Below, one piece after another: positions 1 through 27,217 of a DNA stretch of 64,000 bases. The stretch lies in NCBI RefSeq assembly GCF_009914755.1, contig NC_060925.1; one strand, 5' to 3'. The position numbers and the translations under genes are program-made. The stretch comes from the human T2T-CHM13v2.0 reference genome, Homo sapiens. Position 1 is the stretch's first letter. Each line of letters opens with the position of its first letter. The notes beneath the pieces are model-generated. The model had not been told where the DNA came from and made no database searches. It worked only from the letters and a program-made list of their open reading frames with translations.

Positions 1-672
1 CTATGGGGGTGGGGACAGCAGGGAGGGCCCAGGGAATGGCAGGAGCCTCAAGGGGCAGCATTTGCCAATTTACAAGTTTATGATCTGGGGGGACTGTGAT
101 TGGCCCTCCCACCCTTGGGCCCCAGCAGCATGTGGAAGAAGGTTGCACTGCACTGGAGAGTGTCCTATGAAGAGAGCCAGGGGTCAGCTGCAGTGATGAG
201 AGGAAGGAACATGCAGGGCAGAGGCCGAGAGCATGAGGAAACTTGTTTAGTGTGGAGGACATTCTAGACTCGGGGTACTAGGAAAGGCCTGAGGGGGAGG
301 AGCTGTGAGAAGGAGAGTCTGTCCCCAATCAGTGAACAGGAACAGAGTCAAAGAAAGTTAAATGAAGCCCATTTGTACAGCACATTGCAATTCACAAAGC
401 ACTTTCCCATATGTGCTTGCAGATGAGCCTCATAACAGCTTTTCAGAGCAGAGAGGGAAAGGGATTTGCCCAGAGTCCAGCGGGTAGCCAGTGACCCAGT
501 CACAATGCGAACCAGGAGTGCCAGTGCCCAGTCTGGGTGCTCGAGCCTCCCCACAGACCCCAACATCCTCTTTCTACACTCAAGGATGGAAGCTTGTGGG
601 GATGTGCCTGACGGTCTTTTTTTGCCCTCTCTCCCTGCAGGACAGTAGCCCACACTTCCAGCCTTGCAGACC

Positions 673-1394
673 ATGAATGGGATGGCCAATGTGAATCCCG
701 CCAGCCGCCCTCACTACGCCTCCGCCATCCCGGTGCCTCGTGCCTCTTCCCAGACCAGGATTCCTACACCGGGCGCTTCTCCCCAGCTGCGGCCACGCCA
801 GGCCGGCCTGGCCCTGAGCCCACAGAGAGCAGCCTCCCCCAGACTGGGAAAGGCTGCAGGTCCTTCTAGAAACTCCTCTCCTAGGGCCTTCCGGGGGAGA
901 GGCTCTCCCAAGTTTGCTGGGGCGGTGAGGGAGTCAGCTGAGGATGGGGAAGGCCCCTTCAGCTCCCCATGGAATAGTCCCAGGACAACCCCGAAAGCAG
1001 CCCTCTCCAGCCGGGCTGGATCCGGAAGAATTGGCGAGAGACAAGGCACCCAGGGAAAGAAGAAAAAAGCCCAGGAAGGGACTCCAGTCTGCCAGACCCG
1101 GGGCAGAAGCCCTTCTCGGACGAGCTTTCACGGAGAAACTCAAATACCAGGGGCTCCGGAAGGTCGGAAGCCTCCAAGCTGCCCAGGAAAAGACCAAAGA
1201 GATATAAACTACAAAAGTTCTGGGACCCCCAGGTCTTTGGAGCCTGATGAGGGGGCAGCTTCGTGGGCTTCCTCTCCAGTCTGCAGCCCAGTGCAGGGCA
1301 AGCGCCCCTCTCCCTCTCCGGGGGCCATTAGCTTCTCCTCAGTCCATCAGCAGAGTCAGCCAGTCACAGCCACGGTGGCCCCCTTCCAGTACAG
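673..1394 (+). CDS. NAV1: NAV1 upstream alternative coding exon A (exon 641-1394, ATG 673); Ser/Pro/Arg-rich basic disordered N-terminal extension
   Basis: Acceptor tctttttttgccctctctccctgcag|GAC (exon starts 641). ATG 673 in accATGa context and a second in-frame gggATGg at 682. Frame is open to donor CAG|gtgagc (exon ends 1394, phase 2). Ends in TATVAPFQY-R, resembling the NAV2/NAV3 TATVAPF(L/I)YR motif as I recall it. Confidence 0.8.
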
Positions 1395-2124
1395 GTGAGC
1401 TGGGGAGCAGGCAGGGAGGGAAGGGGGAAGAGCCATGCTGGGACCAAGGGGCAAGCCGGAAGAGGACAGGGACCCTGGTGATCAGTGGCTGGTAAAGACC
1501 AGAGGGCCCCAGGCGATACAAAAAGAAGTTAGGTAGGTGGAGGCCTACAGAGTTGGGGGCTTGGAGAGCTGAGATGGGATTGGGACCATAAAAGGGGACG
1601 CTGACTGAAGCTCTGATCTTTCTCGACTGTGGGGAATCCACAACAAAAAGAGTCTCATAAGGAGGGTACCCCTAAAATGTCCATTTTTGCTCTCTGGAAC
1701 AATATAAAGATTGGGATGTCGTGGAAGCTTAAGCAGCTAGATACATAGGCAGTGTCAGTCTCACCCAATTCATTGTGGGACATTTGCCAACATTGTGAGT
1801 TAGACCAACTCTATTGGCTTGGGCACTGCGCCTTTACTTAGTAAGTAAAATCTACACTGCTTGTTGCACTCATACCTTGTACCTGTCTGTCTGTCTCTCA
1901 CTCGTTTGCTCACTCCATTTGCTATAGTGCCTTGTGCATATCTGCTTATGTGCCTGGCATATCAGGAATTAGTAATGCTTTAGACAGACAGGTGTTGACA
2001 TCCTTGTTGGTGGAGGTGGCCAGTCCAGTATTCACAACAAGATGGCCAACAAGCTAGTACATCCAGCTTTTTTCAGACACTGCAAGTTGATTGCATAGAA
2101 AAACAAACGCTTAGTCAACTACGC

Positions 2125-2433
2125 TTTTTTTTTTTTTTTTTTTTTTTTTGAGATGGCATCTCACTCTATCGCCCAGGCTGGAGTACAGTGGTGCGATCTC
2201 GGCTCACTGCAACCTCCGCCTCCCAGGTTCACGCCATTCTCCTGCCTCAGCCTCCCAAGTAGCTGGGACTACAGGCGCCCACCACCACACCTGGCTAATT
2301 TTTTTTTGTATTTTTAGTAGAGACAGGGTTTCACTGTGTTAGCCAGCATGGTCTCGATCTCCTGACCTCGTGATCCGCCCACCTCAGCCTCCCAAAGTGC
2401 TGGGATTACAGGCGTGAGCCACCGCACCCAGCA
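2125..2433 (-). mobile_element. Alu SINE (AluY/Sc-like), full length
   Basis: Poly-T followed by the reverse Alu body; TSD aacta(c/t)gc on both sides. Confidence 0.95.
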
Positions 2434-26300: not shown

Positions 26301-26425
26301 CCCTCGCTCTCTCCCCCTTCTCTCCCCTTCTTCCTCGGTTTCTTCCGTCCTCTCTCTCCCCCTCCTCCTCCCCCGCCTCCTCCTCCTGCGCTCCCGCCCC
26401 CTGCCCCCTCCCCCCGTGCCTGCAG

Positions 26426-26460
26426 ACGCGCGGATCGTCCATGCGCTCCTCGCGGGCAGA
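26426..26460 (+). CDS. NAV1: 5' extension of the NAV1 canonical exon 1 when used as an internal exon (D-ARIVHALLAGR)
   Basis: Acceptor ccccccgtgcctgcag|ACGCG follows a very long pyrimidine tract. G (exon B) + AC gives Asp, in frame with ATG 26461. Confidence 0.72.
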
Positions 26461-27217
26461 ATGCTGGGCAGCAGCGTCAAGAGCGTGCAGCCCGAGGTGG
26501 AGCTGAGCAGCGGCGGCGGCGACGAGGGCGCGGACGAACCGCGGGGCGCCGGCAGGAAGGCGGCAGCGGCGGACGGCAGAGGCATGCTGCCCAAGCGCGC
26601 CAAGGCGCCCGGCGGCGGCGGCGGCATGGCCAAGGCCAGCGCGGCTGAGCTGAAGGTCTTCAAGTCCGGCAGCGTGGACAGCCGTGTCCCCGGCGGGCCG
26701 CCCGCCTCCAACCTGCGCAAGCAGAAGTCACTCACCAACCTCTCTTTTCTCACGGACTCCGAGAAAAAGCTGCAGCTTTATGAGCCCGAATGGAGCGACG
26801 ATATGGCCAAGGCGCCCAAAGGCTTAGGCAAGGTGGGGTCCAAGGGCCGTGAAGCTCCGCTGATGTCCAAGACGCTGTCCAAGTCGGAGCACTCGCTCTT
26901 CCAGGCCAAGGGCAGCCCGGCGGGCGGCGCCAAGACCCCCCTGGCTCCGCTCGCGCCCAACCTGGGAAAGCCGAGCCGGATCCCTCGAGGACCCTATGCG
27001 GAGGTCAAGCCGCTCAGCAAGGCGCCTGAAGCGGCCGTGAGCGAAGATGGCAAATCGGACGACGAGCTGCTCTCCAGCAAGGCCAAGGCGCAAAAGAGCT
27101 CTGGGCCTGTCCCCTCTGCCAAGGGCCAGGAGGAGCGCGCCTTCCTCAAGGTGGACCCCGAGCTGGTGGTGACCGTGCTGGGAGACCTGGAGCAGCTGCT
27201 CTTCAGCCAGATGCTGG
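26461..27217 (+). CDS. NAV1: Neuron navigator 1, canonical first coding exon (MLGSSVKSVQPEVELSSGGG...LEQLLFSQML)
   Basis: Translation recognised as the human NAV1 N-terminus (RKQKSLTNLSFLTDSEKKLQLYEPEWSDDM; KVDPELVVTVLGDLEQLLFSQML). Strong donor CTGG|gtaagt after 27217; 757 coding nt, phase 1. Confidence 0.96.

What the first reader, a model, noticed from the sequence alone, without database searches (positions are those of the whole stretch)
641..27217. Hidden long NAV1 isoform: two upstream exons add a 287-aa N-terminus in frame with the canonical protein
Seen in sequence: exon A (641-1394, ATG 673, phase-2 donor) joins exon B (7192-7295, phase 2 in, phase 1 out), which joins the acceptor at 26426. 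This gives 722+104+35 = 861 nt (287 codons) with no stop, running straight into MLGSSVKS at 26461. Three independent junctions with consensus splice sites and compatible phases are unlikely by chance. Established: most functional work uses the NAV1 form starting MLGSS. Inference: a longer form from a promoter upstream of this window exists. It may already appear in recent transcript annotation, but I know of no functional characterisation.
Basis: partly seen in the sequence, partly recalled or inferred. Interest (0 to 1): 0.8.

Follow-up and report, generated by a model that had tools for sequence, protein, structure and literature searches.

The report
Known long NAV1 isoform N-terminus
These three exons encode the start of the already annotated 2,164-residue form of the human cytoskeletal protein NAV1, whose extra 287-residue disordered head is conserved across land vertebrates but appears never to have been studied functionally.

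Summary
Exons 641-1394, 7192-7295 and 26426-27217 have consensus splice sites and compatible phases. Joined from ATG 673 they give 287 stop-free codons running into MLGSS.

It is not hidden. The hub table lists exactly these exons and this CDS as the RefSeq-selected transcript NM_001389617.1. A 2023 Navigator review lists the transcript (NP_001376546.1, 2164 aa, "longest transcript & protein") and prints its sequence in a supplement.

New here:
- Exon A is under protein-level constraint. Human-mouse identity is 73%, against about 40% in a neutral simulation.
- Exon A occurs in NAV1 models from caecilians to primates.
- The extension is predicted disordered.
- It holds two conserved islands: an SxIP-type motif (YAS[AS]IPVPR) and ...TATVAPFQYR at the exon A donor.
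- The second island, with the same donor position, also ends the large upstream exons of NAV2 and NAV3. So exons A and B look like retained ancestral Navigator exons.
- Many models skip exon C, giving A-B-D proteins of 1889-1900 aa.

The functional papers I read use the short form. Already known; interest low to moderate.

The parts
641..1394 (+). Exon A. It is presumably exon 3, the first coding exon, of NM_001389617.1 (review supplement: 34 exons, 32 coding). 641-672 is 5'UTR and 673-1394 is coding, with a phase-2 donor.
   Evidence: Splice sites and frame, plus the hub annotation. The 249-aa open frame is the second longest in the window. It is present in 120 of 120 listed placental NAV1 models and in 73 non-placental tetrapod models.
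646..648 (+). In-frame TAG upstream of the start codon. In human it bars any further N-terminal extension through exon A.
   Evidence: Q*PTLPALQT before the Met. Some models, including mouse isoform X10, rat, rabbit, panda and plains zebra, read through here and add roughly 17-32 poorly alignable residues.
673..675 (+). Start codon of the long isoform (ACCATGA context).
   Evidence: and the hub annotation (coding from 673). M1 is invariant in alignment A1.
715..741 (+). YASAIPVPR, residues 15-23. This is an SxIP-type candidate EB-binding motif inside the conserved N-terminal island.
   Evidence: H14, Y15, A16, S17, I19, P20, V21, P22 and R23 are invariant in A1. S-x-I-P-[VM]-P-R is present in 120 of 120 placental and 58 of 73 non-placental models; 12 snake models have SSIPIPR and 3 turtle models have a different N-terminus. 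The 9-mer has one basic and no acidic residue.
1366..1394 (+). TATVAPFQY(R) motif abutting the exon A donor. It is shared with NAV2 and NAV3.
   Evidence: The back-translated pattern hits 7 places in the 3.1-Gb genome. Three are NAV1, NAV2 and NAV3, each at the end of a long open frame followed by TACAG|gt. The motif is present in 119 of 120 placental and 72 of 73 non-placental models.
7192..7295 (+). Exon B, 104 nt, phase 2 in and phase 1 out. It encodes (R)LQTDQ...SFSCM(D).
   Evidence: It is present in 119 of the 120 listed placental models. It is weakly conserved: 69% identity to mouse and 29% to opossum. NAV2 has a counterpart exon starting (R)SQTD.
26426..26460 (+). A 35-nt stretch at the 5' end of exon C that is coding only in the long form. 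It encodes (D)ARIVHALLAGR.
   Evidence: The junction ...DARIVHALLAGRMLGS is identical in the 6 A-B-C models printed, one per species.
26461..26463 (+). Start codon of the canonical 1877-aa form (MLGSS); it is Met288 of the long form.
   Evidence: There is no in-frame ATG between the genomic stop at 26152 and this ATG.
26426..27217 (+). Exon C, 792 nt = 264 codons, phase 1 in and out, so skipping it keeps the frame. It is an internal exon in the long form and the first exon (from 26458) in other transcripts.
   Evidence: and the hub annotation. It is skipped in 105 of the 120 listed placental models of 2000 aa or less. A paralogous first exon exists in NAV3.
25500..28500 (.). CpG island around exon C, the likely internal promoter of the short transcripts.
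   Evidence: GC 0.61-0.69 and CpG observed/expected 0.51-0.92 in 500-bp bins. The flanks and the areas around exons A and B score 0.03-0.36.

Best explanation
The three exons are presumably exons 3-5 of the annotated, RefSeq-selected NAV1 mRNA NM_001389617.1, which encodes NP_001376546.1 (2164 aa).

Proposed mechanism: transcription starts at a promoter about 83 kb upstream of the window. Two non-coding exons are spliced to exon A and translation starts at ATG 673. Exon A joins exon B, and exon B joins either the internal acceptor of exon C at 26426 (the long A-B-C form) or the next exon downstream (the A-B-D form of 1889-1900 aa). The familiar 1877-aa protein comes from transcripts that start in the CpG island at exon C.

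The 287-residue extension is a basic, Ser/Pro-rich, intrinsically disordered segment with two short conserved islands. One is an N-terminal SxIP-type motif, which most likely adds an EB-binding site to the two mapped in the short form. The other is TATVAPFQYR at the exon A/B junction, whose function is unknown.

Exons A and B look like the retained NAV1 counterparts of NAV2 exons 7-8 and of the matching NAV3 exons. Exon C corresponds to an alternative first exon also present in NAV3.

Shown: the exon structure, the open frame, the annotation, conservation, predicted disorder, and the shared motif with the same donor position. Inferred: EB binding, the relative abundance of the forms, and use of the upstream promoter (taken from annotation only).
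For: Structure and annotation:
- Frame and splice sites.
- The hub annotation gives identical exons and CDS.
- The review supplement lists transcript variant 9 (34 exons, 32 coding, CDS 360-6854, 2164 aa). By eye, the 350 residues of its sequence held in the stored supplement match the translation.
- Two further variants (2096 and 2107 aa) are listed there with the same hg38 gene start.

Conservation:
- 120 of 120 listed placental hits carry exon A at 65-100% identity.
- 73 non-placental NAV1 models carry it: caecilians, salamanders, squamates, crocodilians, turtles and marsupials.
- Human-mouse identity is 73% in exon A, against 40% expected neutrally with 0.1% of simulated frames left open.

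Disorder:
- No Pfam family matches.
- AlphaFold2 mean pLDDT is 50.8, with almost no secondary structure.
- pI is 10.5 and 76% of residues are disorder-promoting.

Paralogy:
- Searches place the motif and the following exons in NAV2 and NAV3.
- The chromosome 11 and 12 loci are identified as NAV2 and NAV3 by SxIP 9-mers listed in the review supplement.
- Exon C has a NAV3 paralogue: genome-wide E 9.5e-8, pairwise E 2e-16, same donor position. It is used as the N-terminus of NAV3 models.

Short-form EB binding through SRIP and SGIP.
Against: - No RNA-seq, CAGE, ribosome-profiling or mass-spectrometry data could be consulted. Expression, promoter use and translation from ATG 673 rest on annotation and conservation.
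- Orthologue evidence comes mostly from predicted gene models, which report only intact frames. Species with a broken exon A would not appear.
- The extension evolves much faster than the rest of the protein: 73% against 97% identity between human and mouse.
- Outside the roughly 17-25 residue C-terminal island, exon A does not align significantly with NAV2 or NAV3. A profile of the N-terminal island picks out SSAIPQP and ASAIPSP in the NAV2 and NAV3 exons, but no better than 103 and 51 of 1000 shuffles.
- EB binding by YASAIPVPR is untested.
- Among models of 2000 aa or less, most skip exon C. So the 287-aa "extension" may often be a replacement N-terminus instead.
Confidence: 0.9

Rival explanations
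1. Transcripts containing exon A mostly skip exon C. Their main product would then be an A-B-D protein of about 1889-1900 aa, in which the 276 residues from exons A and B replace the canonical first 252 residues rather than extend them. The A-B-C form of 2164 aa would be the minor form.
For: - 105 of the 120 listed placental models, and all 18 non-placental models printed through exon B, run from exon B straight into ...PESQRKRTVQNVLDLRQ.
- A-B-D is also the layout suggested by the NAV2 and NAV3 loci.
- Exon C is 264 codons, so the frame is kept.
- Two human-identical 1889-aa A-B-D proteins lie on contigs of only 6.6-7.3 kb, which must be spliced, mRNA-like sequences.
Against: - The homologue searches covered only proteins of 2000 aa or less, which excludes full A-B-C proteins of about 2100-2200 aa. 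The counts are therefore biased.
- According to the hub annotation, the RefSeq-selected NM_ transcript includes exon C.
- Six species' models carry an identical B-C junction.
- A knockout that truncates exon C reportedly removed detectable Nav1 protein from mouse brain (passage only).
Confidence: 0.3
2. Exons A and B are transcribed but act as 5' leader sequence. Translation of the long mRNA would still start at ATG 26461, so no extended protein is made.
For: No protein-level data were available here. The extension is much less conserved than the rest of NAV1.
Against: - A scanning ribosome meets ATG 673, with A at -3, about 860 nt of open frame before ATG 26461.
- Amino-acid conservation is far above neutral expectation, and the frame is kept from caecilians to primates.
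- Invariant residues cluster in peptide motifs.
Confidence: 0.04
3. The open frame and splice sites arise by chance, or are an annotation artefact in intronic DNA.
For: None beyond the general frequency of AG/GT dinucleotides.
Against: - It is the second-longest open frame in the window.
- Orthologous exons are found across tetrapods.
- NAV2 and NAV3 share the terminal motif and donor position.
- Spliced contigs contain the exons.
Confidence: 0.01

Closest known systems
NAV1 transcript variant 9 / isoform 9 (NM_001389617.1, ENST00000685211.1, NP_001376546.1; 2164 aa)
   Same: The exons and coding start are identical (hub annotation). By eye, the 350 residues of its sequence held in the review supplement match the translation of the joined exons.
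   Different: Nothing. The finding is this isoform.
NAV2 exons 7-8 (numbering of the review's NAV2-tv2 table) and the corresponding NAV3 exons
   Same: - A large exon ends ...P-x-TATVAPF-x-YR with the donor at the same codon position (TACAG|gt).
- In NAV2 a small exon follows whose tabulated phases (2 in, 1 out) match exon B; NAV3 has a counterpart, but its boundaries were not checked.
- Then comes the exon encoding ...RTV.N..DLRQNLEETMSSLRG.
   Different: - NAV1 exon A is shorter: 754 nt against 1102 nt in NAV2.
- Translation starts inside exon A.
- The rest of the exon is not significantly alignable.
- NAV2 and NAV3 have CH-domain exons upstream (C11:19952923, C12:77918308). No CH match lies in the NAV1 5' region among the 140 genome matches.
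NAV3 short isoforms that begin in an exon-C-like first exon (for example human "neuron navigator 3", 1842 aa)
   Same: - The exon lies between the B-like and D-like exons.
- It is 31% identical to NAV1 exon C over 196 aligned positions.
- It ends ...LGDLEQALYTDLL|Ggtaagt at the same position as ...LGDLEQLLFSQML|Ggtaagt.
- It supplies the initiator Met of a short form.
   Different: In NAV3 a stop lies 8 codons upstream of the Met in that frame. In NAV1 exon C has an upstream acceptor and an open 35-nt leader, so it can also serve as an internal coding exon.
SxIP EB-binding motifs of +TIPs, including SRIP and SGIP of short NAV1
   Same: It has an [ST]-x-[IL]-P core in a basic, Ser/Pro-rich disordered context, with no acidic residue in the 9-mer.
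   Different: Binding of YASAIPVPR to EB proteins has not been tested. The motif lies at the extreme N-terminus.

Membership tests
NAV1 isoform 9 (NP_001376546.1) | Exon coordinates and coding start identical to NM_001389617.1 | tested here: met
   The hub annotation gives exons 641-1394, 7192-7295 and 26426-27217 with coding from 673. reproduce the splice sites and frame.
NAV1 isoform 9 (NP_001376546.1) | Protein sequence identity | tested here: met
   The 350 residues held in the review supplement match the translation, compared by eye. The rest of that cell was cut in storage, and the rest of the protein lies outside the window.
SxIP-type EB-binding motif | [ST]-x-[IL]-P core; 9-residue context with at least one basic and no acidic residue; located in a disordered region (criteria as quoted in PMC9877351) | tested here: met
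   YASAIPVPR meets the sequence criteria. pLDDT is 52-56 over residues 1-30 with almost no secondary structure. The motif is conserved across tetrapods. GETQIPGAP fails because it contains an acidic E. SQTRIPTPG passes but, among the species printed, occurs only in simian primates, xenarthrans and one horse.
SxIP-type EB-binding motif | Physical binding to the EB homology domain and microtubule plus-end tracking that depends on the motif | not testable with these tools
Navigator N-terminal region with a calponin-homology domain (as in NAV2 and NAV3) | CH domain (PF00307) | tested here: not met
   Exons A and C match no Pfam family at E up to 1. Of 140 CH matches in the genome, one lies in NAV2 and one in NAV3, and none lies between C1:200.79 and 200.91 Mb (only 150 candidates were scored). 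The in-frame TAG at 646-648 blocks upstream coding in human.
Paralogue of NAV2 exon 7 / NAV3 large exon | Shared terminal motif, the same donor position, and the same order relative to downstream homologous exons | tested here: met
   Exon phases come from the review's NAV2 exon table. Locus identity comes from the SxIP 9-mers.
Paralogue of NAV2 exon 7 / NAV3 large exon | Significant sequence similarity along the exon | tested here: inconclusive
   Only the last 17-25 residues align (E 8e-4 and 3e-5 against a two-sequence database). The N-terminal island profile is not above shuffles. The whole-genome search with exon A found only itself at E < 0.9.

The most novel reading that the evidence does not exclude
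The 1877-aa protein used in NAV1 work for two decades may be only the internal-promoter form. The forms made from the upstream promoter would then carry a third, tetrapod-conserved SxIP motif and the pan-Navigator TATVAPFxYR motif.

If so:
- The published EB-binding-dead double mutant would not be EB-dead in the long form.
- Exon-C-directed knockouts would spare A-B-D proteins.
- NAV1 would not have lost the whole region upstream of its canonical start, as stated since 2002. It would have lost only the CH-domain part.
Probability: 0.3. Interest if true: 0.5.

Novelty: already known. Interest (0 to 1): 0.25.

Why it matters
The isoform itself is in RefSeq, in Ensembl, and in a review supplement, so finding it again adds nothing. 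What matters is the gap between annotation and bench work. The reference transcript encodes 287 residues absent from the constructs in the functional papers I read (passages only).

The extension contains a conserved candidate EB-binding motif, and NAV1's plus-end tracking has been mapped only on the short form. It also shows that NAV1 keeps counterparts of NAV2 exons 7-8. That qualifies the statement, quoted from Maes et al. 2002, that this part is "entirely missing". Variant interpretation against the reference transcript will now place missense and truncating variants in this unstudied segment.

Tried and rejected
- Pfam scan of exons A and C: no family.
- Literature search by accession numbers: 0 papers.
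- Literature search for the motif TATVAPF: 0 papers.
- A search combining isoform terms without requiring NAV1 was badly designed and uninformative.
- Of the 61 papers holding at least 3 of 6 terms, I saw the listing of 20. None concerns a long NAV1 isoform by title or abstract.
- The hair-follicle proteome paper names only UniProt NAV1 isoforms 2 and 7.
- The single-sequence search of 1.84 billion representatives found only 10 relatives, all NAV1-like fragments. It did not reach NAV2 or NAV3.
- The idea that exon C is a displaced middle part of the NAV2/NAV3 large exon was rejected: E 2.8 and 8.5 with composition correction.
- Homology of the N-terminal island to SSAIPQP (NAV2) and ASAIPSP (NAV3) is not above shuffles.
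- tblastn of NAV2 exon 8 against the first 30 kb of the window did not recover exon B, so similarity there is limited to the opening QTD and an acidic tail.
- Fish, frogs and birds did not appear among the listed exon A hits. With word-based searches capped at 120 rows and 2000 aa, this says nothing about absence.
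Full report
**Observation.**
- Exon A (641-1394) has acceptor ctccctgcag| and donor CAG|gtgagc.
- Exon B (7192-7295) has acceptor tcccacag| and donor TGG|gtaagt.
- Exon C (26426-27217) has acceptor gcctgcag| and donor TGG|gtaagt.
- Joining 673-1394, 7192-7295 and 26426 onward gives an open frame in which MLGSS starts at residue 288. That is 287 added residues from 722+104+35 nt.
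- An in-frame TAG at 646-648 closes the frame upstream of ATG 673, which sits in ACCATGA.
- Of the 39 stop-to-stop frames of 150 aa or more in the window, exon A's (249 aa) is second only to exon C's (406 aa).

**It is already annotated and in print.**
- The hub's RefSeq table gives exactly these exons and this coding start for NM_001389617.1, the selected transcript, with the gene starting 83 kb upstream of the window.
- The supplement of the 2023 review "The Neuron Navigators" (PMC9877351; I saw passages of the main text and of supplementary files) lists [quoted passage not shown].
- It prints the sequence. The 350 residues held match my translation by eye, including ...SFSCMDARIVHALLAGRMLGSS.
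- Variants 7 and 8 (2096 and 2107 aa) are listed there with the same hg38 gene start.
- The same table lists an Ensembl model tied to older cDNA names (KIAA1151) that starts 25.3 kb upstream of variant 1's first base. If hg38 and this assembly are collinear here, that falls inside exon A. This is my inference from coordinates.
- That NM_001389617.1 is also the MANE Select transcript is my recollection, not a tool result.

**Is the extension really coding?**
- Exon A's 240 residues retrieved 148 proteins at E <= 0.001. The 120 listed are all placental NAV1 entries at 65-100% identity.
- The caecilian-like fragment P0127, found in the search of 1.84 billion representatives, retrieved a further 73 non-placental entries, nearly all named NAV1. 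They come from caecilians, salamanders, lizards and snakes, crocodilians, turtles and marsupials.
- Identity to human over exon A is 73% in mouse, 59% in opossum and 37-46% in reptiles and amphibians. The remainder of the protein is 97% identical in mouse and 80-94% in those other species.
- A substitution-only neutral simulation at K=0.47 gives 40% identity (maximum 50% in 2000 runs) and leaves the frame open in 0.1% of runs. The value of K is recalled from the literature on human-mouse neutral divergence.
- So exon A is under protein-level constraint, but a relaxed one.
- Caveat: most orthologues are predicted models, which by construction have intact frames. No codon alignments could be made.

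**Anatomy of the extension.**
- No Pfam family matches.
- An AlphaFold2 model from a 7-sequence alignment has mean pLDDT 50.8 and almost no secondary structure.
- The 287 residues have pI 10.5, 76% disorder-promoting residues and 16 Ser/Thr-Pro sites.
- Conservation is concentrated in two islands.
- Island 1 is M-N-G-x-A-N-V-N...R-x-H-Y-A-S-[AS]-I-P-V-P-R. The S-x-I-P-[VM]-P-R form is present in 120 of 120 placental and 58 of 73 non-placental models. Of the 15 misses, 12 snake models have SSIPIPR and 3 turtle models have another N-terminus.
- The 9-mer YASAIPVPR has a basic residue and no acidic residue in a disordered context. These are the SxIP criteria quoted in the review.
- Island 2 is I-S-F-S-S...P-[VI]-[TM]-A-T-V-A-P-F-[QH]-[YHF]-R at the exon A donor. 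It is present in 119 of 120 placental and 72 of 73 non-placental models.

**Relation to NAV2 and NAV3.**
- The back-translated pattern for TATVAPF hits 7 places in the 3.1-Gb assembly; the reversed control hits 2.
- Three of the seven are NAV1 exon A, C11:20054939 and C12:77985787. Each lies at the end of a long open frame (249, 418 and 355 aa) that ends ...TATVAPF-x-YR and is followed by TACAG|gt.
- The other four lie in frames of 15-84 aa.
- The chromosome 11 and 12 frames contain the SxIP 9-mers that the review lists for NAV2 and NAV3.
- The NAV2 frame appears to end at about residue 677, where the review's table ends NAV2 exon 7 in phase 2 (my residue count).
- NAV2's next exon begins (R)SQTD..., like NAV1's (R)LQTD....
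- The review's table gives that NAV2 exon phases of 2 in and 1 out, matching exon B.
- NAV3 has a counterpart.
- The exon encoding ...DLRQNLEETMSSLRG follows in all three genes.
- Exons A and B therefore look like NAV1's counterparts of NAV2 exons 7-8. The review and its supplement quote Maes et al. 2002 (not read by me) as saying this part is "entirely missing" in NAV1.
- Limits: beyond the last 17-25 residues the exons do not align significantly. The resemblance of island 1 to SSAIPQP and ASAIPSP is not above shuffles.
- No CH-domain match lies in the NAV1 5' region among 140 genome matches, whereas NAV2 and NAV3 each show one. So the loss of the CH domain stands.

**Exon C.**
- It lies in a CpG island and is 264 codons long with phase 1 at both ends.
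- It has a paralogue in NAV3 between the B-like and D-like exons: genome-wide E 9.5e-8, pairwise E 2e-16, same donor position.
- That NAV3 exon forms the N-terminus of NAV3 models, mostly about 1700-1900 aa, from human to shark.
- The canonical short NAV1 is therefore the counterpart of these short NAV3 forms.
- NAV1 differs in that exon C can also be entered through the acceptor at 26426.
- The resulting junction ...DARIVHALLAGRMLGS is identical in the 6 species' models printed.

**Which forms exist?**
- Among the 120 placental hits, 105 have exons A and B but not C, 1 has A only, and 14 score for all three.
- Of those 14, one is a spurious 24% match. Four are old models that read through the exon B donor. 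Nine models from 6 species appear to be true A-B-C forms; the junction was printed for one model per species.
- These counts are biased, because the searches covered only proteins up to 2000 aa and so exclude full A-B-C proteins.
- Two unnamed, human-identical 1889-aa A-B-D proteins lie on contigs of 6.6-7.3 kb. These must be spliced sequences, so the A-B-D form has transcript-like support.
- I could not measure relative abundance.

**Function.**
- The EB1-binding study of NAV1 (PMC7480110, passages) used constructs numbered to residue 1836. It mapped binding to SRIP and SGIP.
- The review analyses the 1877-aa and 1483-aa isoforms in its main text.
- I found no paper that studies the extension. 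Subscription journals and supplements are not searched, and bioRxiv supplements are closed.
- My best mechanistic guess is that island 1 is an additional EB-binding SxIP site. This is inferred, at about 40%. Island 2 has no proposed function.

**Verdict.** The residual value is a testable motif hypothesis and a modest correction to Navigator gene history.

Noticed in passing
L023 (G000:C12:78015207-78015746): NAV3 has an exon homologous to NAV1 exon C, lying between its B-like and D-like exons. It has its own ATG and a stop 8 codons upstream of that ATG. It is the N-terminus of NAV3 models, mostly about 1700-1900 aa, in mammals, turtles, birds, squamates, sturgeon, a shark and a bonytongue. 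No counterpart was found in NAV2.
   Followed up: yes
window 26426-27217, with mouse models P0108 and P0109: The published Nav1 knockout deletes 178 bp at the end of "exon 1" (apparently exon C) on the premise that this exon is in all isoforms. Predicted mouse A-B-D models skip that exon and would escape the deletion. The paper reports loss of Nav1 protein in brain.
   Followed up: partly
window 19694-21223: A 1.5-kb polypyrimidine tract of degenerate (CCTT)n/(TCTT)n arrays produces many stop-free frames of 150-228 aa on both strands. It coincides with the longest masked repeat. This is not coding.
   Followed up: partly
window 641-672, with P0043, P0079, P0086, P0091, P0109, P0114: Several mammalian models (mouse X10, rat, rabbit, pocket mouse, panda, plains zebra) start at an upstream ATG and add roughly 17-32 residues before MNGMANVN. 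The added residues are poorly alignable apart from a short shared ...LLT just before the Met. Human has TAG at 646-648 in that frame. The added part looks like leader sequence rather than conserved coding sequence.
   Followed up: partly
window 26441-26443: An out-of-frame ATG lies 20 nt upstream of the canonical ATG 26461, inside the 35-nt leader of exon C. It could act as an upstream start in short transcripts that begin further 5' in the CpG island.
   Followed up: no
P0019, P0037, P0046, P0080: Four NAV1 models (Colobus, Carlito, Ursus maritimus, Tupaia) continue past the exon B donor into intron-like sequence (GKCSGG..., GKWSEG..., GECSGG..., GGQGSP...) before rejoining exon C. These are probably mis-predictions.
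   Followed up: partly
window 6225-6726 and up to 367: A RefSeq enhancer lies about 500 bp upstream of exon B, and a silencer ends about 270 bp upstream of exon A (hub table). Neither was examined.
   Followed up: no
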